A DNA stretch of 64,000 nucleotides from a virus. Taxonomy: Duplodnaviria > Heunggongvirae > Uroviricota > Caudoviricetes. The notes under the pieces were generated by a model, which worked only from the letters and a program-made list of their open reading frames with translations, was not told the origin of the DNA and ran no database searches. The stretch lies in IMG/VR virus record IMGVR_UViG_3300028591_000092, positions 107,662-171,661 of that record; one strand, 5' to 3'. Position 1 is the stretch's first letter; the number at the start of each line of letters is the position of its first letter. This document shows positions 5,066 through 57,214 of the stretch, piece after piece. Both the position numbers and the translations under genes were made by a program.

Positions 5066-7361
5066 ATTTCATTGTAGATTGTTGAGGAACATTTTTTATT
5101 ATGCCAAAAACTTTCTGACCGTATTCATTTGTATAATACCCAACATTTTCTAATTTTCTGTCACCAGAATTATCTAATTTAGGAACTTTACCCTACATAT
5201 CTTCATTTGCCAAAAGGCAAATTCCAAAAGCAGCCACAATATCAAACTTTCGTTTGTTTTCAAATGAGTAACTTATTAACTGATCAATTACTTCTAAATA
5301 ATCAATTTGATCATAAAAGTCTTCAACATATTCCTATATTAATTCAATTTGGTGTTCTATAATTGATGTTACTGCAGGAACACCGTATTGTCTTTTATTC
5401 TATTTTGAGGTGGTCAATGTTACAGAAGGTCTTCTCATTAAATAGTATTGTTTCTGATACTAAATAAAATGATTTATTACCCCCACTCTAGTCGCCTCCA
5501 CCAAAGCTTTTGCATTATAGAACTAACATAATTTTAATGCTGTATCAAAAGCTTCTCTTACATCATTAGGTCTTTCTAAATATAAAGCAACTATTTTAGG
5601 CGCCTTCAATCCAACCTATCTTCGCATTACGACGATACAGAACTTAGAAACATCGTCTTGCCCAGTAGAAGTGTCTTTGCCCTAGTCAACAGCGTCTATT
5701 CCTATACAATATAAATTATTAAATGGAATACCTTTATCATCTGTCATTGGCAACTCTGTAATAAGAATCTTTCCTTGATCAGTAAATTCTGCTTTAGGCA
5801 TAGAATTTCTGTCAATTCCTCCTATATCCTTATTGTAATCCCAAGAAAGTCTAATTCTCTTAGGAGGCTCAACTGCTTTTAGTTGTTCTATATTTACTTG
5901 CTGTTCTGTAAGTTTTTCAGTATTAAATACATTATCTCCTTCAAGGATAAATGCATCTTCTGGAGTAAAACAGTACTCTGCCTTATCCTATAATAATTTT
6001 TTAGGGTCTTTTATTTTACTCCAAGTATTTTCATAATATGCCTTAGCTCTTTCTTCGTCTACTACTCCTCTTGAATCAAACCCAGGATTACCAGGGCTTC
6101 CAAACCACATAGTATAAGAAGGAATAAAATATCCAGTTAAAACAAATTCACCATTTCTAGTATAATTATGTTTATAAGGAAGCATAAAATACTCCTCTGG
6201 ATTATAAAACATGTCTTTGAGTGCAGCCAGTTTTGGTCCAGTATCTCCAGACGTTCCAAATACAAATCTAGAACCGACTCTAAATCCATTGATTTCAACT
6301 AAAGCGCGAGATTGAATATAAGACTGTGTTAATTTCTCATTACTACCAGCCTCTTCAAAATAAAGACTATATGTACGACCTCCACGTAATTTACGAGGAT
6401 CATCTATTGTAACGCCTTCTACTCTAGACTTCCATCCAACCTCGTTTTTATCTTTATCTACCTTAGAAGCAACCTTGACTCTAGAAGTATCCGTTTTCAT
6501 TCTTACCCTTCTAAAGCCACCTTGAGTTTGAGTATTAAGGAAGTCGAATTCATTCCACACTTTACTCAAAGTATCATCAACATATCTGTCAGCATAGGCC
6601 GCAACTATATTTCTTGTGTTTTTATGAAAAGTATATGCATCAGCAAGATTACTTGCAGCAATCTAAGAAGCTCCAACACCACGAGATTTAAAAGCTACAC
6701 CATCCATTCCAAGAGCTCGACATAAAGCAAGGTAATGAAAATACTCATACTATTTTGCTAAGAATGTGGGGAAGTTTTCCTCTTGTAACTCTGCACCGCT
6801 TTTATCTAATACAGAAGGAAGTCTAAAATAATTTAAGAAGAAATAATTTTCTCCCGTTAAAGTATATCTTCCAATTGTGACACCGTCTCTACATCTTCTA
6901 AATTCTTCCATCCAGTGTACTCTATGAGCAAATGTTCCAGGAAGCAAACTAGTATATTTTCCAGTCTATCTGTAAGTGTCAGCAGCTACTGTAAATACTT
7001 TAGGGTCAAAATCTAATCCTTCAGTTTTTGTTATAGGCCGATACCCAGTTAATTCATAAGATAAAGTCGGATCAAAATATAAAATAGGATCCCCCTTTTT
7101 TACATCCCAAGAATTGGGATCTTTTTTAACTTTTTTTGGCAATTCTTCTTGCTGAGGCTGTTCTTTATACTCAAGCATTTTCTTGACAAGTTCCTGGGTT
7201 TTTTCTTCTTTTGTTGGAGTTTTTCTCTCACGAAGCCTAATCGCTCTCTCTTTGTCAAGCTGTTTAGCTCTTTCTATAGCCTCTTCAGTAGTCATTTGTT
7301 GCCTTATCTTGCGTTCTTTAGCAGATTGTTTTGCTAGCTTTTCTAGCTCTTCTCTTGTCAT
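5040..7361 (-). CDS. terL: terminase large subunit (T4 gp17-like), translated through multiple in-frame TAG codons
   Basis: Same-frame ORFs 5988..6569, 6750..6947 and 6966..7361 joined by TAG at 5988 and 6966. HWMEEFRRCRDGVTIGRYT resembles the T4 gp17 VEEWKKCRDDIVYF region; LYFEEAG is Walker-B-like. Hand translation of ~5690-5760 gives IGIDAVD-Q-GKDTSTGQDD, a terminase nuclease-like motif. Frame-0 TAA at 5040. Confidence 0.6.
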
Positions 7362-12189: not shown

Positions 12190-12558
12190 TTATTTAAATC
12201 TTTCAGTTAATCCTTCTGCAATAACCGCCTTCACGGCCTGTTCATTTACCATCCAATAGCAATTACCCATAAAAGGTACTGGAGTAAGTTGAAGAATATT
12301 TACTAATACATCATCTCCAGCATGTACATATTGACAATCAGGAGCAACTTCAATTACTTTTGCACATTCAATAGTAAGTTTCTTTTCTTCTACTTGACCA
12401 CTATCTGAATTAATAAAATCAGAGTTTAAATCAAGACCGTCTTCAGTTTGTTTGTTAAGATACGGATTTTCATCATAAACATCTACAATAATATTTTTGT
12501 AGATCGGTTTTAATTCTAAAGCATTATTCATAATCATTAAACATTTAATATTGTACAA
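12190..12558 (-). CDS. groS: GroES-like co-chaperonin (longer than canonical); real start probably at the internal MIMNN
   Basis: LKPIYKNIIVDV and the C-terminal AVKAVIAEG resemble GroES; lies immediately downstream of the groEL-like gene. Confidence 0.5.
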   Translation of the reverse strand: MYNIKCLMIMNNALELKPIYKNIIVDVYDENPYLNKQTEDGLDLNSDFINSDSGQVEEKKLTIECAKVIEVAPDCQYVHAGDDVLVNILQLTPVPFMGNCYWMVNEQAVKAVIAEGLTERFK

Positions 12559-14027
12559 TTTGTTGTTAATATAGTTGATGCTACCGAAATAGCATTTTCA
12601 ATTGTTGCTTTTACAACTAGATAAGGATCTATAATTCCTTCTTCGTAATAATTTCCAAAAGGACAACTCCAAAAATCAAAAGTTTGAAAACAATCTTTTT
12701 CTGTATGGTCGAGGCCATACACAATAGTGTTGCACACAGGATCTTTACCAGTTATCATTTTATATGGAGCCCTTAAAACATTTTCTAGTTTCATTTCTAA
12801 TGGGAATTCTCCAATTACTTTTGACAACGCCACACCACCTCCTGGCAGCACTCCACCATCCATAGCACATTTAGTAGCCATAATGGCGTCTTCAAATCTA
12901 TCACATCTTTCCTTCATTTCTATTTTAGAAAAACCACCAACATAAATAGTTGCCATTCCAGATGTAAAGTTTGCTAAACGCTTCTGATGAAATACTTCTT
13001 CGATTTCTGATAAAATAGAGTCTTTAAGAACATCTCTTATAGATTGAATTCTTGCTTCTAATTTATCAGAAGGATGATACCCTATAAATGTGGTAGAATC
13101 TTTTGTAATAACTACTTTTTCGCATTCAGAAGATTCTCCAAATAAAATTCTCATATCTTCTAACATAGTTTCCCTCATAACACCAAAGTTAGGGCTTACT
13201 ACTTCACAAGACATAAGCTTTTTAGAACCATCAGGATTAAACATATTCTTTGCAAGGAATAATGTTAATCCAGATTCAAATTCAGGAGCAATGAGCAGAA
13301 GGCTTTTGTGTTCTCTATAAGCTTTTCCTGCTATAGCTTCCATTTCTTTTCCCTCATCTAGCTTTGTATCAGATATGTAAATAATACAATTCTCTAATAC
13401 ACATTCGTTTTTACTTGTGTTTATAAAGTAAGGAGATTCGTAACCATTATCTATCTTAAATCCTTCCGTATATTCCACCCTATCCTTCACGTCCTCAGAT
13501 TCTTGATATGTTACTAAACCATCTTTCCCTACTTTATAAAAAGCCTCAGCAATAAGACCTCCAATAGTTGGATCATTATTTGCTGCAAGTGTGGCTACTT
13601 TTTTAATATCCTCTAAAGAAGATATGTCTTTTTTATGTTGTTTTAAATACCCAATAATCTCTTCACCCGCTTTTTTTAAATATCTAGATACTTTAATAGG
13701 GTCTGGATTATCTTTATACTGATTTATAATTTCATTTGCTAATATTGCTACAGTTGTAGAACCATCACCAACAGTCTTAGCCTGTTTAATAGACGCTTCT
13801 TTAATAACATCAATACCCATTTGTATATAAGGATCTGGATCATTTACAGAATCCATTACTGTAGCACCGTCTTTTGTGGATTTTAATAGTCCACCTTTTC
13901 TTATCATAACACATGAAGCATTTGGTCCAAAAGTTGTTTCAACAGCTTTCGTTGCCAAATTAGCTCCCTCAATAATTTTAGATCTAGCTTCAGATCCAAA
14001 TTTTACATTATCATATTCCATAACCAT
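12537..14027 (-). CDS. groL: GroEL/Cpn60-like chaperonin
   Basis: VKFGSEARSKIIEGANLATKAVETTFGP and DGSTTVAILA match GroEL N-terminal and ATP-binding motifs. 496 aa. Confidence 0.9.
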   Translation of the reverse strand: MVMEYDNVKFGSEARSKIIEGANLATKAVETTFGPNASCVMIRKGGLLKSTKDGATVMDSVNDPDPYIQMGIDVIKEASIKQAKTVGDGSTTVAILANEIINQYKDNPDPIKVSRYLKKAGEEIIGYLKQHKKDISSLEDIKKVATLAANNDPTIGGLIAEAFYKVGKDGLVTYQESEDVKDRVEYTEGFKIDNGYESPYFINTSKNECVLENCIIYISDTKLDEGKEMEAIAGKAYREHKSLLLIAPEFESGLTLFLAKNMFNPDGSKKLMSCEVVSPNFGVMRETMLEDMRILFGESSECEKVVITKDSTTFIGYHPSDKLEARIQSIRDVLKDSILSEIEEVFHQKRLANFTSGMATIYVGGFSKIEMKERCDRFEDAIMATKCAMDGGVLPGGGVALSKVIGEFPLEMKLENVLRAPYKMITGKDPVCNTIVYGLDHTEKDCFQTFDFWSCPFGNYYEEGIIDPYLVVKATIENAISVASTILTTNCTILNV

Positions 14028-14699
14028 ATTTTATTTTTAAATTACCATTTGCCTAAAACGCAATGTGAACTTGGGCTTGAAGTTTTCTTCTGCATGTAAC
14101 ACCCACAACCACACACAATATTCCTTCCAGGATAATCTACTAATTTTTCGTTTTCTTTATCCCAACATTTTTTACTATCACAAGTGTCCTTTTCCTTATT
14201 ATATAAAGGACACTATATACATATTTTCATCCTAGATTCAGAAAGTTCTTTTTCTCTTCCAAGAGCATAGTTACTCCAACCTTCTGCAATCTAGCCTAAC
14301 TATTCAAAACTATTAATTCCGAACATTATTTAAAGAATTTATAGTAGTTTACAGTTCCGCCATTTTTTTCAACAGGCCTTTGACGTATAAGATCTGTAAT
14401 ATAAGGTATTAAAGAGCGTTTCGGAGTTGTTGTAGCCTTGGATTCTATTTGTTTAATATAATTATTCCAATAATCTGCATCTATATCATTAACAGGAATC
14501 CAGTCTCCGCCGCTCGACTCCCATTGCTAGATTTCATATCCGCCATTTGGAAGATTTCTATATCTTCTTCCAGCTTCTTTAATTTCTTTCCACGGATTTT
14601 CTCTCCAAGGAGCATTATCTGTAAATAAAGTAACTTCTTTTCCTGTAGGAGATTTCATTCTCTAATATGTATTTAACAAACTACCCATTTTATTTATAT

Positions 14700-17409: not shown

Positions 17410-17426
17410 ATTAAAAATATATTATT

Positions 17427-17504
17427 GGTTGCCCTCCAAGGATTCCAACCTTGCTCCCCTGATTTAGAGTCAGGTATAATCAATTGCAAATATACGAGAG
17501 GGCA
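17427..17504 (-). tRNA. amber suppressor tRNA (anticodon CTA, reads UAG); amino-acid identity not determinable by eye
   Basis: Reverse complement TGCCCTCTCGTATATTTGCAATTGATTATACCTGACTCTAAATCAGGGGAGCAAGGTTGGAATCCTTGGAGGGCAACC. 7-bp acceptor TGCCCTC/GAGGGCA; anticodon stem CCTGA/TCAGG with loop CTCTAAA (U33, CUA, A37); T-arm CAAGG-TTGGAAT-CCTTG. Confidence 0.7.
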
Positions 17505-23777: not shown

Positions 23778-24299
23778 ATGACGTGCCGTTTTAATAATGT
23801 GGTATCGTGTATTAATTTGTCAACACAGATGGCTCTCGTGAGCCTGATTACTGATGGCTTTATGCTCACCACGAGGAAATATCATGGCTGGGTAATTGAG
23901 GGCCCAGATGGGCAGGTTGTTAAACTGTCAAAAGGTCTTAGCCTATGGGCAGACGTGTTTAGGACTTGGAAGCCAGAAGTGTTGAGAGATCGGATAAAGC
24001 TCCGTCTTCGCGGGGCCGAGACACAACTGTGGTTCAGGGGATCGGACCAAATTCCTACTGGCCTTCCAGAAGTGAAGGTAATTAAAAGTAGTCCAACCTG
24101 GCTACAGCATCTAGCAGGGGCAGACTGCTCACTGCCGGCCCCAAAAGAGGGGCAAAGAATAATCTTTGGCACCCTCATATATGAGAGGTGTCTTCTCGTC
24201 GGTGGGGACACCGACAGATGGAAACTTATCGAGTTTCCGTCAGAGACTTTAGCCCGCATATGTTGTGGGGAAGTTGATAACTCGACCGAGCGAGTATAA
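23778..24299 (+). CDS. hypothetical protein in GC-rich island (antisense ORFs 23882..24328 and 23453..23713 are probably artefacts)
   Basis: 173-aa ORF; ~50% GC against a ~30% background. Confidence 0.4.
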   Translation: MTCRFNNVVSCINLSTQMALVSLITDGFMLTTRKYHGWVIEGPDGQVVKLSKGLSLWADVFRTWKPEVLRDRIKLRLRGAETQLWFRGSDQIPTGLPEVKVIKSSPTWLQHLAGADCSLPAPKEGQRIIFGTLIYERCLLVGGDTDRWKLIEFPSETLARICCGEVDNSTERV

Positions 24300-24394
24300 A
24301 TAGACTTTAGGCTCGGTGCGTTGCCCAATCAGAAATGGTTGGGCAGGTAGTATTAACTAAAGTGCGTTAAGGAGCGCACGTTAAACAATAAAAA

Positions 24395-28241: not shown

Positions 28242-28442
28242 GGTCTTATCGTCTAGCGGTGATAATTGCGGCGAATCTGATACTACCAAGGCATGAGATA
28301 TTTCTATTATAGAATATAGGTTGCCAGAAGTAGGGATACTGGGTCCCGAAGACGCGTTCGGTGTGCACCTGGAACACTCACAGTTATCTTAGGACAATTA
28401 CTTCTCAAGTAAAAAACGTTGGTTCGAATCCAGCTGAGACTA
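28242..28442 (+). tRNA. tRNA-Glu(CTC)-like gene with a ~140-nt D-loop insertion (paralog of 27951..28130)
   Basis: GGTCTTA/TGAGACT acceptor with compensatory C5-T/G68-A change relative to the paralog; D-stem GTCT/GGAC; loop TTCTCAA; T-arm GTTGG-TTCGAAT-CCAGC. Confidence 0.5.
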
Positions 28443-29682: not shown

Positions 29683-30471
29683 ATGAAAGACATTTCTAAT
29701 ATGACCGTATATACAGAAGGTATGCGTAAAACTTTATTTGACAAATGTTATTTTGTTGATAAGGCAGATGCAAATATCTTTGTAGATTACGGTTGTGGAG
29801 ATGGATCATTGATTCGTCTTCTTAGTCAACTTTTTCCTGGTAATCTTTACATAGGATTTGATACTAATGTTCAGATGTTAGAACTGGCAAAGCAAGATAA
29901 AGAGGATAATGCTGTGTTTGTTGGAACTAAAGAAGAACTTATATCATTACTATTTGGGAAAACAGGTAAAAAGTGTCTTATACTTAACAGTGTGATACAT
30001 GAGATTCATTCTTATTGTACACCTGAAGAAATAGAAGAATTTTATTCTTTTATTTTCAGTGGTGTTTTTGACTATATCTGCATTCGTGATATGATGCCGT
30101 CTTACTCTATTAATCATATGAGTAATCCGTCATATGTAGATAAAGTAAAGCATGTTTTATCAACATGTCCTTTACCTTCTGCTATAACATATCTGAATGA
30201 TTTTGAAAGTATTTGGGGTTCTATTAATTTTAATAAGAACATGTATCATTTCTTTTTAAAATACAGATATACAGCAAATTGGAAGAGAGAGGTTGAAGAA
30301 AATTACTTTCCAATTTGTAAAGAAGAATTTAAAGAAACTATACCAAATACGTATGATATTATTTATTTAGAGGAATTTCTTCTTCCTTATTTAAAGAAAA
30401 TCATACAGGAAGATTTTGGTATTGTTTTGGATGAATGTACACACGTTAAGTTTGTATTAAAAAGAAAATAG
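29683..30471 (+). CDS. class I SAM-dependent methyltransferase
   Basis: Motif I VDYGCGDGS; 262 aa. Confidence 0.75.
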   Translation: MKDISNMTVYTEGMRKTLFDKCYFVDKADANIFVDYGCGDGSLIRLLSQLFPGNLYIGFDTNVQMLELAKQDKEDNAVFVGTKEELISLLFGKTGKKCLILNSVIHEIHSYCTPEEIEEFYSFIFSGVFDYICIRDMMPSYSINHMSNPSYVDKVKHVLSTCPLPSAITYLNDFESIWGSINFNKNMYHFFLKYRYTANWKREVEENYFPICKEEFKETIPNTYDIIYLEEFLLPYLKKIIQEDFGIVLDECTHVKFVLKRK

Positions 30472-30479
30472 GTATAATA

Positions 30480-31860
30480 ACCTAACGTTTGGAAGTTCGG
30501 ACATAAAACTTCAAAGAGGCGACGGTACAGACTTAGCTATTTGTTAAGTAGTCTCATAGACTGGTGATGAACTATTCCAGTCACTCTTTTCTCAATAACC
30601 GAAAGTGGGGGTCCTAAACATAAGTAGCGCTAAAATTATGAACAGGAGTATATAATGAAATACACGGAGAAAAGATTTTATTTTACTGCATAATAGTTCC
30701 GTAAGGACAAATCAGAGAGATACTACGTGCAGGTAATGGCTCTGATTTTTTTAATAGTGTTATTACTCCACTTAATAGAGTAATTAAAGTCCAATTCGGT
30801 CATAAGGACCACGAGAGATGATTGTCTAGGCTCTCACTTTTGACGGATGGAAAGACATCTAAGTTTAGTATTTTGAAAACAAAAGTACTCAGAATAATAC
30901 TCTGTGAAAGTATTTTTTTAAAATCAGAACGAATTGCAATAAGTTCTGATGGAGAGGTTGCAAACTCTCATGGATATGTAGTATAAAGGAGTACTCTGCT
31001 GGGCTAGTGGTTATAAATGCTGTACAAGCTACCAGACTACTCGGCGGCGGCGTAGGTTAGAATCCTACCATATCTTCTAAAATCCATCAAATGACACGAT
31101 GGTTGACTCCTATCAATAGAGTAGGTACAGGCTGTTATTAGAAGCCACACGTCCTCCCGTGAGTGTGAGGTGTCCCAAAGTTATTCTTTTACTGGCACAA
31201 AAGTTTTAGTCAAGAACAAAAAAAGACAATTTTGAGCATAGTCGTCTGATCAGGACTATGCCTTCTATCTAGAGTGATTCTCTAAGGTTGATTACCAATC
31301 ATCTGACACTTTAAAAGTAAGCCAATAGGGGAAACTTTGTCAAAGTTTTAATAGTTTACTGACGTAAGATCTCATCAATCGAAAACTATTTGTTAGTAAA
31401 TATGGTAGCTATTGAGTCGCTCTTAATAGTAGAGGTTCGATTCCTCTTTTACTTCTAAATCCAATTCTCACAATTGGTAGCAGGCTGTAATAGAAGCCAA
31501 GTTTATCACTATAATGCATAAAGTGACATCAAAGAGTTAGATGTAAAATAGGACTGGTCAACTCAAAAAAGATCTTGGGCATAATTGCTTGGTTGTAATT
31601 ATGCTTTCTAATTAGAAAATTTCTTAAAACTATGTACATAAGTTTAACATATCTATTGGGTTGGTTGTTGACTTAGTTTTAAGAGATACTTAAAAATCCA
31701 TTCTATGATACCATGTTTTCGTAGAATAAGTAAGTGACATGGCACAATGCAGTTTGGTGGATTCTGCTTATTTTAGATAATATAATATTGCCATATACAA
31801 CTTTGATAACCAATCAATTTTATATCTTCCCCTCCTAGAATCCGCTAGGAGGGGATAACC
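30480..31860 (+). ncRNA. ~1.4-kb ORF-free structured region with duplicated ~80-100-nt units (31055-31155 and 31425-31505), each holding a T-arm-like hairpin and a GGTA(G)CAGGCTGT.ATAGAAGCCA motif; group-I-like AAGTCCAATTC at 30787
   Basis: No ORF of 60 aa or more on either strand. GTAGGTTAGAATCCTAC and GAGGTTCGATTCCTC hairpins. AAGTCCAATTC is shared with the tRNA-Leu intron at 43985. Confidence 0.35.
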
Positions 31861-31868
31861 TAGGTATT

Positions 31869-32252
31869 ATGAAAGAAACAAAACATTATTTTGAAGTGGG
31901 AGGATTAAAAGTTTTTTGGAACTTTTGGCTATTACCTTCTAATTTTATTGCTATAACATTTTTTGGTTGTGTTTTGAGTAATTTAAAGTATGAAAATTTA
32001 AAGAAATATTTAGAGTCATATAAAGGATATGTTATGATTAATCATGAAAGAATCCATATGTTGCAAGCGAATTCTTTTATATTAGGTTATTTCACTTTTT
32101 ATATTTTATATCTTTGGTATTGGATAAAAGAATTATTTAAATATAGATTTAATAATAATCTTTCTTATTATAATATTCCTTTTGAAAAAGAAGCTTTTGA
32201 TAAAGAACTAGATTTTAAATATAGTTCTTCCAAATGGAAAAAATATATTTAA
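31869..32252 (+). CDS. membrane protein with HExxH-like motif (HERIH)
   Basis: ORF track; hydrophobic segments; HERIHMLQ. Confidence 0.45.
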   Translation: MKETKHYFEVGGLKVFWNFWLLPSNFIAITFFGCVLSNLKYENLKKYLESYKGYVMINHERIHMLQANSFILGYFTFYILYLWYWIKELFKYRFNNNLSYYNIPFEKEAFDKELDFKYSSSKWKKYI

Positions 32253-32904: not shown

Positions 32905-33870
32905 TAGTTGAAGGAAAACAACTTTAAATAAACCCAGTGAAGGTAAACACGTTAAAACCCGTAGTCTGCATCGTAGCAGAATTCATGTCCATGAAGCTTA
33001 TAGGACTAGGGTTTAGCAATTTACCGAAATAAAATTGCATTTTACTATAGTTGAAGGAAAACAACTTAAAAAACCCGTTGAAAGTTCAGCATACTAGTTT
33101 TGAGAACTTTACAAAGAACGATCGGTATAGAGGTTCCAAGAGAGTTGACAGGTAGTACAAGACTCTCAAATTTATAGTTGAAGGGAAACAACTTTAAAAA
33201 CCAAATTGAAATTGTAAATTAGAGAACTATATGCATTCTGGGTAAACCGCTAGGTCAGTGAACGTCTAATTTGCATCTTGCAAGATTTCAATTTTTATTT
33301 GAAGATACCGAGGATGAGTTGCAGATATGCAATCGGTGGAGGTTCACGATGATATTAGAGGTAATGCTCCGTAATCGGAATAATGTGAATGTAGGTATTA
33401 AAATTAGTTGAATGCAACAACTTTAAAAACATGCTACCGAGGCAAAAAGAGGGGAAGGTCCCAATTATCAATGACGTCCACGATAAAAGGGGGATTCGAA
33501 TGAAGATTCTAGAATTGATTTCGTTTCGTAGGTAGCATTCTATAGTTGAAGGAAAACAACTCTAATAAACCCTTGGCAGTGCGGATGTGACAAGTAAACT
33601 AACATTTATCCGCTCCTCGGGTTTTCGTAAGCTTTTGTCCATAAAAATGCTTACTGCGATCTAACACTGCAGAATTGTTAGAAGGAAGATAACACTGGGT
33701 TTATCCGTTTTGTAAGTGTGCGATAGATAACTTACTATGTTTAGATAAATTCATAGTCAAAAATTGTCCGTGTTTTAGTAATTTACCGTGAGGAATAAAG
33801 AACCGAAATTGCATTTTACTACAGTTGAAGGAAAACAACTTTGATAAAACCGTTGATGGAAAACAACTAA
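32905..33870 (+). repeat. array of 6 copies of a hairpin repeat (T)AGTTGAAGGAAAACAACTTTAAAAAACC separated by 130-280 nt unique segments
   Basis: Copies near 32905, 33044, 33174, 33405, 33540 and 33822. Inverted repeat AGTTG..CAACT. Two copies share a longer ATTGCATTTTACTA prefix. Confidence 0.6.
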
Positions 33871-43633: not shown

Positions 43634-44235
43634 GCCACCTTGGCGGAATTGGCAGACGCGAAGGACTTAATTATTAATTTGAGTGCACTGAGGGAAACCT
43701 TAGATGTAGAACCTCCCTAATTCGGTGGAAGCTAAGTTAGAATAAAAAAGAAAGTGTAGGTTTTGAGGAAGATTTCACGAGTCTCCGGACAATCCCGTAT
43801 CCTCTCTAAGTTTTTCCTTTTCTAATATGCTAATACCGAGCCAATGTTAAGATAGCGGAATGGGCTTGCTCTTACTTGAAATAATAGTAATGAGATTGTA
43901 GTGCCGTGAAAATAGACAGTGTGTAGAGACTATACAGGAGGAACCTAAGTTGAAATAAATTTAGTATGGAGTATTATGACCCACAAGTCCAATTCTTTGA
44001 AGGATTGCTTATGAATGGGATAAGAGCATAAAGCATTGCATCGAAACATACGCTTGCAAGATTTTAATATGGTTTAGATAGAGTCCAGACTACAACAAAT
44101 AGGTGTAGGTTCGTTGCCTACAGATTAAGTTCGTAATAACTTGCAGACGAAATCTATTTGGCTATGGAAACATAGAGTAGTAAGAAAATCCTTTGGCCCG
44201 AAGGGGCTATCCCGGTTCGATCCCGGGAGGTGGTA
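43634..44235 (+). tRNA. tRNA-Leu(UAA) interrupted after U34 by a ~516-nt group-I-like intron. Exons 43634..43668 and 44185..44235; intron 43669..44184.
   Basis: 5' exon GCCACCT-TG-GCG-GAATTGGCAGA-CGC-G-AAGGA-CTT and 3' exon AAAA-TCCTT-TGGCCCGAAGGGGCTAT-CCCGG-TTCGATC-CCGGG-AGGTGGT-A. Exon ends in U; intron ends in G; GAGT near the intron start can pair with ACTT of the exon (P1 with a U-G pair). Confidence 0.6.
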
Positions 44236-44365
44236 CTAATAAATTATATTAATAAATATTAATATATGGAAAAAATATTAACAAAAAACATTGTATATAA
44301 ACTTGGTTTACAAATTGTCTGTTATTACAGTTGAGGTGATTAGCTAAACTTAAAAATGCATAATT

Positions 44366-46007: not shown

Positions 46008-46119
46008 GGTCCTTTCGTCTAATAAGAGTATGAGACCTTCGCAGTTCGATCTGGATCATACTGGAATAGGACATATAATCGCTCGGTTATAGATGCAAGT
46101 TCGATTCTTGCAGGGACTA
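46008..46119 (+). ncRNA. tRNA-Glu-derived tRNA-like RNA (candidate Y-RNA-like). Acceptor-like GGTCCTT/AGGGACT, ~48-nt D-loop insertion, stem TATAA/TTATA closing a conserved 8-nt loop TCGCTCGG, T-arm GCAAG-TTCGATT-CTTGC.
   Basis: See finding. No CCA; discriminator A. Confidence 0.5.
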
Positions 46120-47569: not shown

Positions 47570-47581
47570 AAAATTATAGTC

Positions 47582-49273
47582 ATGACAAAAATTAATTCAA
47601 GAAATGCACAATTAAAAAGTGCTTTAGGTGCTATGGCTCCTAAGGAAAGAGTTAAAGAAGTTTTAAATATTCCAAAAGAAGATACTAAGAACCGTCAAGG
47701 TTTTGCAGCATATTCTTTGCCGGAAGAACTTCGTTTAATTAGCATGCTTAACACTCTTAAGGTACAGGAACAATTTTATCGTACCGAAAATAAGCAAATG
47801 CAAGAACTTAGAGATCTTATTGAACGTATAGGATTTAAAGATCCTTATTTTGTAGCTCAGTGTATTAAATACTCTCGATGCATGGGCGAAGGCATGCGTG
47901 ATATTAATAATATTGCTGCAGCTTTATTAGCTCCTTTTGCCTCTGGCCAAGAATGGGCAAAACGTTTCTATAGTCTGTATAATAAGAAAACACAGCTTGG
48001 TGGTTGCATTTTCCGTGCAGATGATATGAATGCAATTAAAACAGTATTTTCTGCTTTAAATACTCCTAAGCTTTCAGCCGCAATGAAAGTTGGTTTTCGT
48101 AATACTTTGGAAGCTCTTGATGCATATCAGTTAGCTAAGTATGCAAAGACAACTCGTGATATTGCAAATCTTGTTCATCCTAATCCTGAGAAATCTAAAG
48201 CAGTTATAACTTTAACTGGTAAAGATCGAGATAAATTTCTTGATGGAAAAGGTTATGATGAAAGTGCTTCTGAAATTACAGTAAAAGTGCTTGATGCTAT
48301 TATGTCCGGTATTACTGTTTCAGCAGATACTTGGGAAGTAGCAAATTCAGAAGCAGGTCAAGAAGTTGCTAAAGCTGTTAAAGCTGGCAAAATTACTGCA
48401 GAAGAAGGTAAAAAGATTTTAGCACAAGCTAAAGATCAGAATTTCCAAGATCTTCTTAAAGAAGGAAAACTTGGTGTTCTTGCTGCTTTGCGTAATATTC
48501 GTCAGATTTTACAATATTCAGATCAGAAAACTGTAGATTTGTTATGTGCTCTTCTTTCCAATCCTGAAAAGATTCGTCAAGGAAAGATCATGCCTTATCA
48601 AATTGATATTGCATATGAAGTATTAAATACTGAATTTCGTTCTTACGATAAGTATACACAAGTTCGTGATGCTTTAGTTCGTGGTTATGAAACTTCTGTC
48701 CCTAATTTAGCTGAAGCTCTTCCTGGAAAGACTTTAGTTATTTTAGATTGTTCTGGTTCAATGTCTGCATTTCTTTATGATTCTGCAAATAAACGTCGTT
48801 TGTATTCTAGTTGTCTTGATAAAGCCTCTTTGATTGCTGCTACTATTGCTAAAGCAACTGGGGCTGATGTTATTCGTTTTGGATCAAGAGCAGAATGGAC
48901 AAGCTACAACAAGAATCATACTGTATTTGATATTGCACAACAATTTGCTGCATCTCGTATGGGATGCACTTATTTGAATTATGCTTGGGATCTTGCTCGT
49001 GTAAGTCATAAAGATTATGATCGAGTAATTATTCTCTCGGATAATGAGTGCAACTCAATGCAAAGAGTGTCAACTTCTTATAAGCAGTATGTGCACGACG
49101 TATGCTCACCATATGTTTATTGTTGTGATATGGCAGCTTATGGAACTACTCCACTTGCAGGCGATAAAGTTAATTATTATTGTGGCTATGGCTATAAGTT
49201 ATTTGACGATATTGCAAGTAACGAGTTTAACCCAATGCAACACATTGAGAAAATAAGAAAGGTAGTCATTTGA
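47582..49273 (+). CDS. Ro60/Rsr-like protein: alpha-helical TROVE-like N-terminal ~370 aa plus C-terminal vWA domain with MIDAS motif
   Basis: 563 aa. VILDCSGSMS (DxSGS MIDAS). Size and architecture match Ro60/Rsr. Surrounded by tRNA-like RNA genes. Confidence 0.6.
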   Translation: MTKINSRNAQLKSALGAMAPKERVKEVLNIPKEDTKNRQGFAAYSLPEELRLISMLNTLKVQEQFYRTENKQMQELRDLIERIGFKDPYFVAQCIKYSRCMGEGMRDINNIAAALLAPFASGQEWAKRFYSLYNKKTQLGGCIFRADDMNAIKTVFSALNTPKLSAAMKVGFRNTLEALDAYQLAKYAKTTRDIANLVHPNPEKSKAVITLTGKDRDKFLDGKGYDESASEITVKVLDAIMSGITVSADTWEVANSEAGQEVAKAVKAGKITAEEGKKILAQAKDQNFQDLLKEGKLGVLAALRNIRQILQYSDQKTVDLLCALLSNPEKIRQGKIMPYQIDIAYEVLNTEFRSYDKYTQVRDALVRGYETSVPNLAEALPGKTLVILDCSGSMSAFLYDSANKRRLYSSCLDKASLIAATIAKATGADVIRFGSRAEWTSYNKNHTVFDIAQQFAASRMGCTYLNYAWDLARVSHKDYDRVIILSDNECNSMQRVSTSYKQYVHDVCSPYVYCCDMAAYGTTPLAGDKVNYYCGYGYKLFDDIASNEFNPMQHIEKIRKVVI

Positions 49274-49326: not shown

Positions 49327-49440
49327 TTTGGTCTGCTAAACCGGCGGTCACTGGTTCGAGTCCAGTATATATTATAATATATTAGCTCAGTTGGTAGAGC
49401 GCCTTTTGTTTTATGTGAATTACGTTTTCTATGTCAATTA
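49327..49440 (+). ncRNA. unresolved tRNA-like module. A 3' half (anticodon-arm-like GGTCTGCTAAACC, T-arm ACTGG-TTCGAGT-CCAGT, ATATATT-A) is followed within 2 nt by a 5' half (AATATAT-TA-GCTC-AGTTGGTA-GAGC); the two acceptor strands are complementary to each other.
   Basis: Seen in sequence. Could be a permuted/circularising tRNA-like RNA or two split genes. Confidence 0.3.
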
Positions 49441-49558: not shown

Positions 49559-49690
49559 GGCGAGCTAGTTAAATAAAAAAGTTTCACTCTAGTCTATATT
49601 CTTCGTAAGATAGTCATGATTTAGAGTTACTTCGGTTATAACAATTTCCTCCTAAGAAATCATATCCAGGTTCGAGTCCTGGGCTCGCCA
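49559..49690 (+). tRNA. tRNA-Arg(CCT)-like with a ~65-nt D-loop insertion that contains motif copy c
   Basis: Acceptor GGCGAGC/GCTCGCC (7/7), D-stem GTTA/TAAC, anticodon arm ATTTC-CTCCTAA-GAAAT, T-arm CCAGG-TTCGAGT-CCTGG. Confidence 0.45.
49611..49635 (+). promoter_or_regulatory. copy c of the 23-nt motif (inside the tRNA-Arg D-loop insert)
   Basis: tagtcatgatttagagttacttcgg. Confidence 0.4.
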
Positions 49691-51291: not shown

Positions 51292-53644
51292 ATGACTAAA
51301 AAAAATATAAAGTTAGGAGATATTATTAAAACTAGAGAAGGATATTTATATATATATGCTAAATGTAATTTTAGGATTAGATATTTTAGTTGTAAAAAAA
51401 TACTATATTGTCCTCAAACAGGAAAATACTTTGGGCAAGGATTAGATAGTTTTAATAATAATTTAGAATATATATATTATAATCCCAATTCTAGACATGA
51501 TATTATAGATTGTTTTCGTCCATGCTCTAAATTTAAAACTATTAATATATCTGAATCTGATATTGGGAATATTACAACAGAAAAATATCGTATAATGTAT
51601 ATGTTATCTAATTCTTATTCTATTAAAAATTCATGTATAATTGATTTGTCTTATTTAAAATGATTTTTAAAAAATATTTATAGTTAGGAGAAAATTATAA
51701 TATTAATTATATATAGGGTTAGATCTAAAATTTTTATTAAAACATTCATATCCTGTTTATTCTGAATTTGTTGATTTAATTATTTAACAACTATTTTTAT
51801 GATTGAAAAAAAAGATGTTCAATTAGGTGATTTATTTCTTCTAAGTAATGGATATTATTATTTATATGTATATTGTCGTTCTTGGCGTAAAAATATATTT
51901 ATAAGGAATGGAGGATATTATAAAATATCTGGTTTAAATAACTACAATGAATATTTACAATATATTGATCCTTATTTATCACAAAATAATATGTTTGATA
52001 TTTTAAAAATTTATAGACCTTATTCTAAATATACAAAACGAATTATAGAATATACTACAAATTTTTATTTTCCTATTAGTTATATTATACATCATTCTGT
52101 AGATATTACTAATGGTACAAAGTTTACTATTGTTGATTTAAATAATTACTCTTAATATTAGATTTATAGTTTAGTGGTAAAACTAGTGACTCCAAATCTC
52201 CAATCCCTTGTTCGATTTTAAATAGATATACATTATTATTATGAAAAAAAGTGATCTTAAATTTGGTGATATTATAATTACTAAATATGGCTATATATAT
52301 GTTTTAGTATATGTAGATGGTGGTGAAGGAATTCGTTTTGTCAGAAGTAATGGAAATTATTTATTACCTGCTATGTTTGACACTGAACTTCATTGTAAAG
52401 GCAATAGAGATTTAGATATTGTTAAAGTAGTTCGGCCTTTACCTAAAGATAGAATTATTGCTGCTTCCCAAAGACATATTATTAAATATTATGATTTTTT
52501 TGGGGCTGTACGTCGGGGAACAGAGTTAAATTCTTATATTATTGATTTGTCTGTTTATAATGATCCTTGGCGGACAATGAAGGTTGATTCTTCAATGAGT
52601 TCTTTATTTAATATATAATATGTTAAAAGTTATTGGTAAAAATTTTGTTATAAGTATTAAAGGAAAATTATATAATGGAGAAATTTTTGGAGATACTTAT
52701 GATTTTTTTCTTTGTCGTATACGTACTGTAAAAAATAATAGATATGTATATTTTGGCAATGATTATTTATTTTCTTTAGTTAATATTAAAAAAAAAGATT
52801 TAATAGATTTCTATTATTCTATTCTTCATTATTATCCTAAAAATGGATGTTGCCCATGTACAAGAACAAAATCTGATACAATTAAAATATTATCAGCTTT
52901 AGATAAATTATCCAATAATGGTTGTTGTATAGATTTAAATTATATTGAATATGTTTAAATATTCTTCAAAAAATAATTATTTTAAATTTAATATTAACTC
53001 AAAAATATATGAAGGTATTATATGTTCTTCTGATTGCGGATATTATCCAAGATTTTTTGGTGATTATTTTGGGTACGAATATTATGCAATGCCTTTAATA
53101 GATCTTCATTTGTTTGAACAACCCAAAAAAGATAATCTTTTTAGACAAATTTTAGGATATACAAATCATTTAGGTTTTTGGCCTTATTGTAGTTCTAAAC
53201 AAGATGTTATAAAGGTGTTAAAATATCTTTCTAATTTAAGTAATAGAACAATTGTAAATTTAAATTTATATAATGATTAGAGTAATTGTGCCAATATCTT
53301 GGGCATCTGTTTTACGAATAAATTTATTTGATAAACTTAAAGCATTAGGTTATACTTGGAGCAAAGGAGATTCTTTAGATACTTTCCATGAAAAGTACCA
53401 GAATATGGCTTATATTGCTATATATCCTATAGATAAACACATCATTAAGTTTGGTACAAATTTAGAAACAGGAACCAAACTTCATGGAGAATACGGTTAT
53501 AATTATGTTACTGAATATAAAGAAGTAGATCAAATTATAAGTGTAGTTAAACTTGTTTCTATGTTTTTAAAAATTTGTAAAGTAGAATATGCTGAAAAAA
53601 GCTTTGTTCAAGAACATAATTCTTTAAAGAGATATAAAATATGA
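51292..53644 (+). other. tandem array of six small paralogous genes (51292..51663, 51799..52155, 52241..52618, 52620..52958, 52945..53280, 53273..53644) sharing N-terminal K.GD(I/L).......GY.Y and C-terminal I(I/V)(D/N)L(N/S).Y
   Basis: ORF track alignments by eye. Confidence 0.5.
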
Positions 53645-56874: not shown

Positions 56875-56899
56875 AGGGCTTATTTTATTTGGGCCGTAG

Positions 56900-57214
56900 A
56901 GGAATTGATTCACATGTTAGCTATTATAAGACAGCAGAGTGATGACTTAATCATCAAAACAAAAATAAATGGCAGATCTTATTCTACCTATAGAATGGCT
57001 GCGTAAGCCATTTCTCTGGTTGTTGAGTAACCAAGGAACATAATACTCATAGTTGGTTTCTTTGTTTAGTAAAACAAAGTGGTGGAGGTAGCGAGTCGAA
57101 TAGACCAGTTACCCCGTGATAAGCAACACGTAAAAAAGCAAGCTGTATAGTTCTTATAAAAAGCGGTGGAGAAGACTGGAGTTCGAATCTCCAACGGTCC
57201 ACAATTAATTGAAA
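56900..57214 (+). ncRNA. possible ~315-nt tRNA-like or intron-containing RNA. 5' GGGCCGT pairs with 3' ACGGTCC flanking T-arm TGGAG-TTCGAAT-CTCCA.
   Basis: Seen in sequence; internal structure unresolved. Confidence 0.3.

What the first reader, a model, noticed from the sequence alone, without database searches (positions are those of the whole stretch)
30480..31860. 1.4-kb ORF-free structured region with internally duplicated units and a group-I-intron-like motif
No ORF of 60 aa or more on either strand. Two ~80-100-nt units (31055-31155 and 31425-31505) each combine a T-arm-like hairpin, a CTTCTAAA(T)CCA tract and GGTA.CAGGCTGT.ATAGAAGCCA. AAGTCCAATTC at 30787 recurs in the tRNA-Leu intron at 43985. 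This may hold one or two intron-containing RNA genes or a large ornate ncRNA, as reported for other phages near tRNA clusters.
Basis: seen in the sequence. Interest (0 to 1): 0.6.

Follow-up and report, generated by a model that had tools for sequence, protein, structure and literature searches.

The report
Interrupted phage tRNA plus repeated trailers
This gene-free 1.4 kb of a large phage is not a group I intron or a giant structured RNA; it is a dispensable, lineage-specific cluster holding a tRNA gene split by a 29-base insert, a decayed tRNA-like element and three copies of a small hairpin-rich unit.

Summary
Window 30472-31868 has no ORF of 60 aa or more, and the two repeated units are real and beyond chance.

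- **No known large RNA.** Nothing matches Intron_gpI, GOLLD, ROOL, OLE or tmRNA even at E<=10. The same search does detect the window's genuine tRNA-Leu group I intron. Folding energies are ordinary.
- **AAGTCCAATTC** recurring at 43985 is chance-level.
- **An interrupted tRNA.** 30972-31076 (Rfam tRNA, 39.3 bits) is homologous to an uninterrupted 77-nt tRNA-Val(AAC)-type gene of a related phage. It shares that gene's 56-nt two-hairpin leader but carries 29 extra bases in the anticodon loop.
- **A degenerate tRNA-like element** lies at 31315-31455.
- **Three "E" units** lie at about 30487-30752, 31084-31285 and 31462-31625. Each runs 5' hairpin, GGTA(N)CAG plus hairpin, then a terminal hairpin. 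E0 is the weakest copy.
- **Dispensable.** A 96-97% identical relative lacks exactly 30487-31461 (975 bp). That joins the promoter-like TATAAT directly to the third unit.

Most likely this is a co-transcribed cluster of tRNA-like and small RNA genes cut at the tRNA-like elements. The 29-nt insert resembles the "enigmatic" tRNA introns of Lak megaphages. Function is unproven, and decay of an old tRNA array is a serious rival.

The parts
30473..30478 (+). Promoter-like -10 hexamer TATAAT, just after the methyltransferase stop codon. A start site about 7 nt downstream would coincide with the left edge of the 975-bp segment.
   Evidence: Read from the sequence. The -35 is poor, so the consensus scan did not report it. 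Its role is inferred. In L072 the same hexamer sits at the same distance from unit E2.
30487..31461 (.). 975-bp accessory segment (boundaries +/-1 nt) that is absent from a 96-97% identical relative.
   Evidence: In L072 (SRR27422544), window 30401-30486 aligns to 867-952 and window 31461-31580 aligns to 952-1070. The L072 junction reads AACCTAAC|CAATTCTCAC.
30487..30752 (+). Unit E0, the weakest copy. It has a 5' hairpin (30488-30497 / 30507-16), GGTACAG plus hairpin AGACT/AGTCT (30524-30553), and a terminal hairpin ATCAGAG/CTCTGAT (30711-30746) followed by T7.
   Evidence: The Y stem differs from E1 and E2 by a G-C to A-U double change.
30916..30971 (+). Conserved 56-nt leader with two hairpins (30923-30950 and 30952-30969), both showing UUGCAA in the loop.
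   Evidence: Together with the tRNA 5' half it is 94% identical over 83 aligned positions to L071 6367-6449. The proteins of the two phages are only 56% identical. There is one compensatory C-G to U-A change in hairpin 1. nhmmer found it nowhere else.
30972..31076 (+). tRNA gene A, a 105-nt cloverleaf with a 29-nt insert in the anticodon loop (about 31007-31035; with a canonical 37/38 position, 31010-31038).
   Evidence: Rfam tRNA 39.3 bits against a gathering score of 29. It is homologous to the 77-nt tRNA-Val(AAC) of L071. Removing any 29-nt block starting at 31006-31013 restores a 77-nt tRNA for ARAGORN. The anticodon and T stems co-vary with L071.
31084..31285 (+). Unit E1. Hairpin X is CCATC/GATGG (31084-31102). 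GGTACAG plus hairpin Y GGCT/AGCC spans 31124-31147. Hairpin Z is GCATAGTC/GACTATGC (31236-31261), followed by CTTCTA.
31315..31455 (+). Degenerate tRNA-like element B. It has a canonical T-arm (31431-31447) and a 7-bp acceptor-like stem extended by leader-trailer pairing, but no usable anticodon arm.
   Evidence: Rfam tRNA 21.6 bits, below threshold. The ARAGORN intron-mode call is dubious. No single deletion gives a unique tRNA. Fold.
31462..31625 (+). Unit E2, a paralog of E1. Hairpin X is CCAATT/AATTGG (31461-31477). GGTAGCAG plus hairpin Y spans 31476-31499. Hairpin Z is GCATAATT/AATTATGC (31579-31604), followed by TTTCTA.
   Evidence: It is colinear with E1 over about 200 nt. Two stem pairs of Z are changed on both sides and still pair, plus one further inner pair that RNAalifold predicts. 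The first 119 nt are retained in L072 at 97.5% identity.
31687..31700 (+). Weak third copy of the junction motif, TACTTAAAAATCCA.
   Evidence: families D1 and D8. May be chance.
31828..31855 (+). Perfect 11-bp G+C-rich hairpin with no T-run, 13 nt upstream of the ATG of the 127-aa gene.
   Evidence: I18. It accounts for the only clearly negative z-score in the region.

Best explanation
The region is a lineage-specific, non-essential cluster of small RNA genes on the + strand, inside the tRNA-rich early region of a large phage that carries a TAG-suppressor tRNA. It lies on a 164.5-kb metagenomic contig.

**Layout**
1. Promoter-like TATAAT.
2. Unit E0.
3. An uncharacterised stretch of about 160 nt.
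4. A two-hairpin leader followed by tRNA A, which has 29 extra nucleotides in its anticodon loop.
5. Unit E1.
6. The degenerate tRNA-like element B.
7. Unit E2.
8. About 200 nt, then a strong hairpin.

**Proposed mechanism (inferred, not shown)**
- The cluster is transcribed rightwards.
- The tRNA-shaped elements are cut out by host RNase P and RNase Z. This both releases them and defines the ends of the E RNAs that follow.
- tRNA A can decode only if its 29-nt insert is removed, in the way proposed for the "enigmatic" tRNA introns of Lak megaphages. Otherwise it is a non-decoding tRNA mimic or a dead gene.
- E1 and E2 arose by tandem duplication of a unit of about 350 bp.

**What is shown**
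- The parts and their repetition.
- The homology of tRNA A to an uninterrupted tRNA.
- The 975-bp presence/absence difference between close relatives.
For: - **tRNA A is a tRNA.** Rfam tRNA scores 39.3 bits at 30972-31076.
- **It has an uninterrupted homolog.** The 56-nt leader and the tRNA 5' half are 94% identical to a 77-nt tRNA-Val(AAC) gene in L071 (83 aligned positions), and the 3' part is 84% identical.
- **The insert is discrete.** Removing 29 nt restores a 77-nt cloverleaf with a 5-bp anticodon stem.
- **The stems co-vary.** Three anticodon-stem pairs and one T-stem pair differ on both sides from L071 and still pair.
- **E1 and E2 are paralogs.** They are colinear over about 200 nt (nhmmer 1.6e-37). 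The stem of hairpin Z keeps two pairs through double changes, plus one further inner pair that RNAalifold predicts. Hairpin X is kept with a different sequence.
- **The GGTA(N)CAG-hairpin is enriched.** Three of the window's eight copies fall in this region.
- **The missing segment is unit-bounded.** L072 lacks exactly 30487-31461, so the same TATAAT abuts E2 where it abuts E0 in the window.
- **Relatives carry real tRNA arrays.** L077 and L079 hold them just upstream of their homologs of the 127-aa gene, separated by one ORF.
- **No sign of coding.**
- **Precedent exists.** Short unexplained tRNA introns and highly expressed long intergenic regions are described in Lak megaphages (PMC6784885).
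Against: - No expression or processing data exist.
- The promoter is a bare -10 hexamer with a poor -35 and was not reported by the consensus scan. The host's promoter type is unknown.
- The E units were found only in this phage and its near-identical relative. The structural support therefore rests on 2-3 paralogs.
- E0 resembles E1 and E2 only in the GGTACAG-hairpin and one short block.
- Folding energies are not better than shuffles.
- 975 bp is dispensable in a close relative, which fits junk as well as accessory function.
- By my inspection of the sequence, no bulge-helix-bulge splice motif fits the 29-nt insert.
- No RNA ligase or splicing endonuclease was seen among the window proteins that were scanned.
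- The identity of tRNA A after removing the insert is ambiguous: Val, Ala or Thr depending on the register.
Confidence: 0.45

Rival explanations
1. The region is a decaying tRNA array. An ancestral run of tRNA genes and spacers was duplicated. It is now eroding: one tRNA was inactivated by a 29-nt insertion, another degraded beyond recognition, and the spacers carry no function. The sequence survives only because it is harmless.
For: - Relatives carry intact tRNA arrays in the corresponding neighbourhood.
- Element B and other tRNA-like scraps in the window (46008-46119, 49625-49682, 28374-28442) score below threshold.
- 975 bp is deleted without replacement in a 96-97% identical phage.
- There is no thermodynamic signal, and nothing is conserved outside this lineage.
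Against: - tRNA A keeps every stem intact, including an anticodon stem that has co-varied relative to L071.
- The 24-nt core of the E units is 22/24 identical and the hairpin stems are maintained by double changes, while the surrounding sequence has drifted to about 55-60% identity.
- The deletion in L072 removes whole units and keeps the promoter-to-E spacing.
Confidence: 0.3
2. The 975-bp segment is a non-autonomous mobile cassette without an ORF, of MITE, PATE or integron-cassette type. It inserted at the start of E2 and brought tRNA-like sequences with it.
For: - There is a clean presence/absence difference with only 1 nt of ambiguity.
- The ends form an imperfect inverted repeat: GTTTGGAAGT at the left, ACTTCTAAATC at the right (read).
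- All unit junctions share a CTAA..C | CA-like sequence.
- The leader plus tRNA A is 94% identical in a phage whose proteins are only 56% identical, and it sits at a different position relative to the methyltransferase gene there. This suggests horizontal movement.
Against: - No target-site duplication.
- No second copy of the segment or its ends in the window or in any collection searched.
- No transposase or integrase nearby.
- The paralogy of E1 (inside the segment) with E2 (outside it) argues for deletion of tandem units in L072 rather than insertion.
Confidence: 0.1
3. This is the first reader's view: the region is one large ornate structured RNA, or it contains group I intron-bearing RNA genes.
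For: - It is ORF-free and hairpin-rich, and it lies near tRNAs.
- The phage does carry a group I intron in tRNA-Leu that falls below Rfam's gathering score, so weak introns can be missed.
- GOLLD and ROOL RNAs are typically found near tRNAs in phages (my own knowledge).
Against: - No Rfam match at E<=10 to Intron_gpI, GOLLD, ROOL, OLE or tmRNA, although the positive control is found.
- ARAGORN's intron mode finds no long-intron tRNA here.
- Two thirds of the region is absent from a near-identical phage.
- The interior is not alignable with L071.
- z-scores are ordinary.
Confidence: 0.05
4. The region has hidden protein coding, either short genes or genes read with TAG or TGA recoded.
For: - The phage carries a tRNA with anticodon CUA, and its - strand late genes are fragmented in code 11.
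- Recoding creates ORFs of up to 106 aa in this region.
Against: - The neighbouring + strand genes are intact in the standard code.
- The recoded ORFs hit nothing significant in PHROGs or Pfam (the only Pfam match is DUF2706, 15.9 bits against a cut-off of 25).
- The only ORF with a good Shine-Dalgarno sequence is 12 aa long.
- The tRNA-type elements occupy the same sequence.
Confidence: 0.03

Closest known systems
"Enigmatic" short introns in tRNA genes of Lak megaphages (Devoto et al. 2019, PMC6784885)
   Same: - A tRNA gene of a large gut-type phage is longer than normal because of a short insert in the anticodon region.
- Presence/absence is seen between related phages.
- No Rfam classification and no known removal mechanism.
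- The same genomes have an alternative genetic code and long non-coding regions.
   Different: - This phage is much smaller (164.5-kb contig, 33% G+C) and is not shown to be a Lak phage.
- The Lak intron sequences were not compared here.
- The insert position is ambiguous (33/34 to 37/38).
- Splicing is unproven in both cases.
Group I intron in tRNA-Leu(UAA), cyanobacterial type (Rfam RF00028)
   Same: - An insert in the anticodon loop of a tRNA.
- A true example sits in the same window at 43634-44236.
   Different: - The insert here is 29 nt, an order of magnitude too short for a group I core.
- No RF00028 match.
Archaeal and eukaryal protein-spliced tRNA introns (bulge-helix-bulge)
   Same: - Similar size range.
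- The insert pairs with the anticodon region. A 7-bp helix, 31006-31012 with 31035-31041, appears in the predicted fold.
   Different: - No two 3-nt bulges separated by 4 bp could be drawn (my inspection).
- Bacteria and their phages are not known to have the splicing endonuclease.
- No such enzyme was seen in the window.
tRNA-linked small RNAs released by tRNA processing: MHV68 TMER tRNA-miRNA genes, MALAT1-mascRNA, E. coli 3'ETS-leuZ (recalled from my own knowledge)
   Same: A tRNA-shaped element is directly followed or preceded by hairpin-containing RNA, whose end would be set by RNase P or RNase Z cleavage.
   Different: - This is an analogy of architecture only.
- No processing data, no sequence relationship, and no known target for the E units.
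GOLLD and ROOL large ornate RNAs of phages
   Same: ORF-free, in a phage, next to tRNAs.
   Different: - No Rfam match at E<=10.
- The region is modular, repetitive and mostly dispensable.
- No excess predicted stability.

Membership tests
tRNA (Rfam RF00005), element A 30972-31076 | Covariance-model score at or above the gathering score, with acceptor, D and T arms. | tested here: met
   39.3 bits against 29. All stems pair.
tRNA (Rfam RF00005), element A 30972-31076 | A 7-nt anticodon loop with U33 that presents an anticodon. | tested here: not met
   As encoded, the loop region is 36 nt on the ARAGORN stem (42 nt on the Rfam stem). A canonical loop appears only after removing 29 nt.
tRNA (Rfam RF00005), element B 31315-31455 | Covariance-model score at or above the gathering score. 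| tested here: not met
   21.6 bits against 29. No unique deletion restores a tRNA.
Group I intron (RF00028) | A match to the catalytic core model (P3-P9). | tested here: not met
   No hit at E<=10 in 30300-32000. The positive control, the tRNA-Leu intron, scores 30.6 bits with E 7e-6.
Group I intron (RF00028) | Interrupts a functional gene, ends in G, and is at least about 200 nt long. | tested here: not met
   The only interruption is 29 nt. The 975-bp segment ends in C or T and does not interrupt a recognisable gene.
GOLLD / ROOL / OLE / tmRNA | A match to the Rfam covariance model. | tested here: not met
   No hit at E<=10. A sub-threshold tmRNA-like match lies elsewhere in the window, at 56891-57204.
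Protein-spliced (BHB) tRNA intron | Two 3-nt bulges on opposite strands, separated by a 4-bp helix, at the splice sites. | tested here: not met
   Inspection of the pairings around 31004-31039, using the stems. The best central helix has 3 of 4 pairs and the bulge sizes are wrong. No dedicated BHB search tool was run.
Protein-spliced (BHB) tRNA intron | The insert is removed and the halves are ligated in vivo. | not testable with these tools
   Needs tRNA-seq or a Northern blot.
Lak-type enigmatic phage tRNA intron | A short insert in the anticodon region of a phage tRNA, defined by alignment with an uninterrupted homolog. | tested here: met
   Alignment with the tRNA-Val(AAC) of L071. Definition taken from PMC6784885.
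Lak-type enigmatic phage tRNA intron | Sequence relationship to the published Lak introns. | not tested
   The supplementary intron sequences were not retrieved. An 18-nt core of the insert has only chance matches in IMG/VR.
Non-autonomous transposable element (MITE / PATE) | Multiple copies, target-site duplication or a defined target, and terminal repeats or hairpins. | tested here: inconclusive
   The ends form an imperfect 10-11-nt inverted repeat. There is no duplication and no other copy anywhere.

The most novel reading that the evidence does not exclude
A bacterial virus uses tRNA-shaped elements as processing punctuation to release a private family of small regulatory RNAs, the E units. 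It also carries a tRNA whose 29-nt intron, at or near a non-canonical anticodon-loop position, is removed by a protein-based or otherwise unknown splicing route that has not been described for bacteria or their phages.
Probability: 0.12. Interest if true: 0.65.

Novelty: new member of a known kind. Interest (0 to 1): 0.3.

Why it matters
If the 29-nt insert is removed in vivo, this would be a second, independent and much smaller genomic setting in which to study the unexplained short tRNA introns of gut phages. The case comes with a ready-made uninterrupted homolog for comparison. If the E units are real small RNAs, they would show tRNA-like elements acting as processing handles in a phage. 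If neither holds, the region is a clear example of how phage tRNA arrays duplicate, decay and are deleted unit by unit. It also warns that ORF-free stretches near phage tRNAs need not be large ornate RNAs.

Tried and rejected
**Searches for relatives that found nothing useful**
- blastn of the region against 50,697 phage records: no match.
- Motif scans of IMG/VR, JGI metagenome contigs and GTDB genomes: only chance hits, in coding or unrelated sequence.
- Regex, nhmmer and GGTA(N)CAG-hairpin searches for the leader and the E units in all fetched loci: only the same phage and L072.
- The three "other" contigs that encode the flanking proteins (L068-L070) are 100% identical to the window and add no variation.
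- The gap after the methyltransferase gene in L071 holds no tRNA-like element or E unit.
- A global alignment of window 30430-31100 with L071 5776-6520 shows homology only in the leader and tRNA.

**Ideas tested and dropped**
- The UUGCAA loops of the leader as a recurring motif: not recurrent.
- GGTATAAT / ATAACCTA as a recurring promoter: not recurrent.
- The sigma-70 and terminator consensus scan: at background level, and its two "terminators" are simply the T-arms.
- A deletion scan of element B and of the tRNA-like element at 46008-46119: no unique canonical tRNA.
- Reading CTTCTAA as an Arg(UCU) anticodon loop, a permuted-tRNA reading of the units, and a YrlA-like reading: all rejected by inspection, or because there is no RF02553 match in the region.
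- Recoded ORFs: no significant family hit (one sub-threshold Pfam match).
Full report
**Context.**
- The window is part of a 164.5-kb metagenomic phage contig (ENA ERZ27256846 k141_3103349). Fragments from JGI 3300024345 and SRR8436538 are 100% identical to it.
- Positions 1-23 kb are - strand genes that are fragmented in code 11. They lie near a tRNA with anticodon CUA, which points to TAG recoding.
- Positions 23-64 kb are + strand genes that are intact in the standard code. About 25 tRNAs are interspersed among them, together with a Pistol ribozyme, a Ro60-like gene followed by a YrlA-like RNA, and a tmRNA-like RNA.
- The finding lies between a SAM-methyltransferase-like gene (29683-30471) and a 127-aa gene (31869-32252).

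**Checking the observation.**
- No ORF of 60 aa or more exists on either strand.
- CAGGCTGT-N2-4-AGAAGCC occurs exactly twice in the window, against none in 100 shuffles.
- The best local alignment of the two units scores 31. One of 2000 shuffles and none of 2932 other genomic segments reach that score.
- The 11-mer AAGTCCAATTC does recur at 43985, and that position is inside a real group I intron. ARAGORN's intron mode reconstructs a tRNA-Leu(UAA) at 43634-44236 with a 516-nt intron. Rfam Intron_gpI scores 30.6 bits (E 7e-6) there when the stretch is searched alone.
- The 11-mer itself is chance-level, and the two regions share nothing else.
- Predicted folding is no more stable than shuffled controls or than neighbouring coding sequence.

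**What known RNA families say.**
- At E<=10 the only meaningful Rfam matches in 30300-32000 are to the tRNA model. One is 39.3 bits at 30972-31076, above the gathering score, with 44 nt between the anticodon-stem strands. The other is 21.6 bits at 31394-31455.
- There is no Intron_gpI, GOLLD, ROOL, OLE, tmRNA or YrlA match.
- The same procedure does find the window's weak tRNA-Leu intron. The negative result therefore counts against a group I intron here.

**Comparative evidence.** Close relatives are rare. There were no hits in the phage collection, and only chance hits to the motifs in IMG/VR, the JGI contigs and the GTDB genomes. Two loci reached through the flanking methyltransferase were decisive.

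- **L072** is a 1070-nt contig whose methyltransferase is 95% identical. It aligns at 96.5% up to window 30486 and resumes at 97.5% from window 31461. It therefore lacks 975 bp. Its junction reads ...TAGGTATAATAACCTAAC|CAATTCTCACATTGGTAGCAGGCTGTAAGAGAAGCC.... Two thirds of the "region" is thus dispensable.
- **L071** is a 57-kb contig whose methyltransferase is 56% identical. At a different position relative to that gene it carries a normal-length 77-nt tRNA-Val(AAC). This gene's 56-nt upstream leader and 5' half are 94% identical to window 30916-30997, and its 3' part is 84% identical to 31044-31080.
- Between L071 and the window, nothing else in the region is alignable.

**tRNA A.**
- Compared with L071, the window copy has a different anticodon arm and is 28 nt longer overall.
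- I deleted every possible block and re-ran ARAGORN. Removing any 29-nt block that starts at 31006-31013 yields a 77-nt cloverleaf with a 5-bp anticodon stem (CUGGG/CUCGG) and a CU-NNN-UA loop.
- The register decides the anticodon: GAC or AAC (Val, as in L071), AGC, or AGU. With the canonical 37/38 position (removing 31010-31038) the loop is a fully canonical CUAGUGA.
- Compared pair by pair with L071, three anticodon-stem pairs and one T-stem pair differ on both sides and still pair. The cloverleaf, including the stem that flanks the insert, has therefore been maintained.
- The insert pairs with the anticodon region in a 7-bp helix. I could not draw a bulge-helix-bulge motif, and an 18-nt core of the insert is found nowhere else.
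- The leader has two hairpins, with one compensatory change between the two phages. Both loops show the palindrome UUGCAA. Its role is unknown.

**Element B (31315-31455).** It has a canonical T-arm and a 7-bp acceptor-like stem. The interior is three unrelated hairpins, and no single deletion gives a unique tRNA. I treat it as a tRNA-like remnant or mimic.

**Repeated E units.**
Window 31072-31285 and 31450-31625 are colinear over about 200 nt (nhmmer 1.6e-37).
- Each copy has four parts:
  - the junction CTTCTAAA(A)TCC;
  - hairpin X, with a different sequence in each copy but a hairpin in both;
  - GGTA(N)CAG plus hairpin Y (GGCT/AGCC);
  - hairpin Z, whose 8-bp stem keeps two pairs through double changes (a third, inner pair that RNAalifold predicts also co-varies); Z is followed by (C/T)TTCTA.
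- A third and weaker copy, E0, starts exactly at the left edge of the 975-bp segment. It has a 5' hairpin, then GGTACAG plus hairpin AGACT/AGTCT (one compensatory change relative to Y), and a hairpin followed by T7 at 30711-30752.
- Three of the eight GGTA(N)CAG sites in the 64-kb window (both strands) fall in this 1.4 kb, and all three are followed by a hairpin.
- The L072 deletion removes E0, tRNA A, E1 and B. It leaves E2 abutting the TATAAT hexamer just as E0 does in the window.
- No E-like unit exists in L071, L077, L079 or the other loci.

**Coding potential.**
- The only ORF with a good Shine-Dalgarno sequence is 12 aa long.
- ORFs created by reading TAG or TGA as sense (up to 106 aa) hit nothing significant in PHROGs or Pfam.

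**Interpretation.**
- The most economical reading is a lineage-specific accessory cluster of tRNA-type and small-RNA-type genes, generated by tandem duplication. Related phages (L077, L079) keep ordinary tRNA arrays in the same neighbourhood.
- I infer rightward transcription and processing at the tRNA-shaped elements by RNase P and RNase Z. This is established biology for tRNA precursors, but it is not shown here. Such processing would also set the ends of the E RNAs.
- The 29-nt insert fits the description of the "enigmatic" short tRNA introns of Lak megaphages. Those were also defined by alignment with uninterrupted copies, and they also lack a mechanism (PMC6784885).
- Large gut phages with recoding and many self-splicing introns are known as well (PMC7886860). 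That fits the tRNA-Leu intron in this window.
- The main rival is plain decay of a duplicated tRNA array. A mobile-cassette reading of the 975 bp cannot be excluded, but there is no second copy and no target duplication.
- The large-ornate-RNA, group I intron and hidden-coding readings are disfavoured.

**Verdict.** What remains is an interrupted phage tRNA gene with precedent in the literature, plus a private family of repeated hairpin units of unknown function. Interest is moderate to low until expression data exist.

Noticed in passing
window 43634-44236 (+): tRNA-Leu(UAA) split by a 516-nt group I intron in the anticodon loop. ARAGORN's default mode misses it, and Rfam Intron_gpI scores only 30.6 bits against a gathering score of 50.
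   Followed up: partly
window 47570-49270 (+) and 49338-49411 (+): A 567-aa Ro60/TROVE-like protein (phrog_850, 1.6e-28; weak Pfam vWA_Ro60 and TROVE hits). It is followed directly by a sub-threshold YrlA (Y RNA-like) match of 41.3 bits against 69. This looks like a phage-encoded Ro60 / Y RNA pair. The relatives L077 and L079 also carry TROVE genes.
   Followed up: partly
window 56891-57204 (+): A tmRNA-like RNA (Rfam RF00023, 27.4 bits against 47, E 3.3e-7). ARAGORN's intron mode miscalls it as an intron-bearing tRNA-Leu.
   Followed up: no
window 24280-24352 (+): A full-length Pistol self-cleaving ribozyme (68.2 bits against 34.5).
   Followed up: no
window 32906-33868 (+): Six copies of the hairpin motif AGTTGAAGGAAAACAACT, usually preceded by TATAG or TACAG. 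They lie at irregular spacing (143, 127, 368, 279 and 28 nt) in the next ORF-free gap. 0.19 matches are expected by chance. They could be iterons, promoters or small-RNA repeats.
   Followed up: partly
window 17426-17504 (-) and 1-23000: A tRNA with anticodon CUA (amber suppressor) sits among - strand late genes that are fragmented in code 11. Examples are a TerL fragment at 5991-6662 and GroEL at 12540-14030. Summed ORF length in the window rises from 39 to 56 kb when TAG is read as sense, and by about the same amount when TGA is.
   Followed up: partly
window 46008-46119 (+), 49625-49682, 28374-28442, 52160-52230: Further sub-threshold tRNA-like elements. The first is 112 nt long with a large internal insert. 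No single deletion restores a canonical tRNA.
   Followed up: partly
L071 6424-6500 and 9196-9270: The related phage encodes tRNAs with A34 anticodons, Val(AAC) and Thr(AGU). These are unusual for bacterial systems, where only Arg(ACG) normally has A34.
   Followed up: no
L077 3416-3565; L079 8183-8334: ARAGORN's intron mode predicts a tRNA-Lys whose roughly 75-nt "intron" overlaps a predicted tRNA-Ser(CGA). This recalls the tRNA-within-intron reported for Lak phages, but it may be an artefact.
   Followed up: no
window 30655-30693 (+): A 12-codon micro-ORF (MKYTEKRFYFTA) with a strong AGGAG ribosome-binding site 6 nt upstream, inside unit E0.
   Followed up: no
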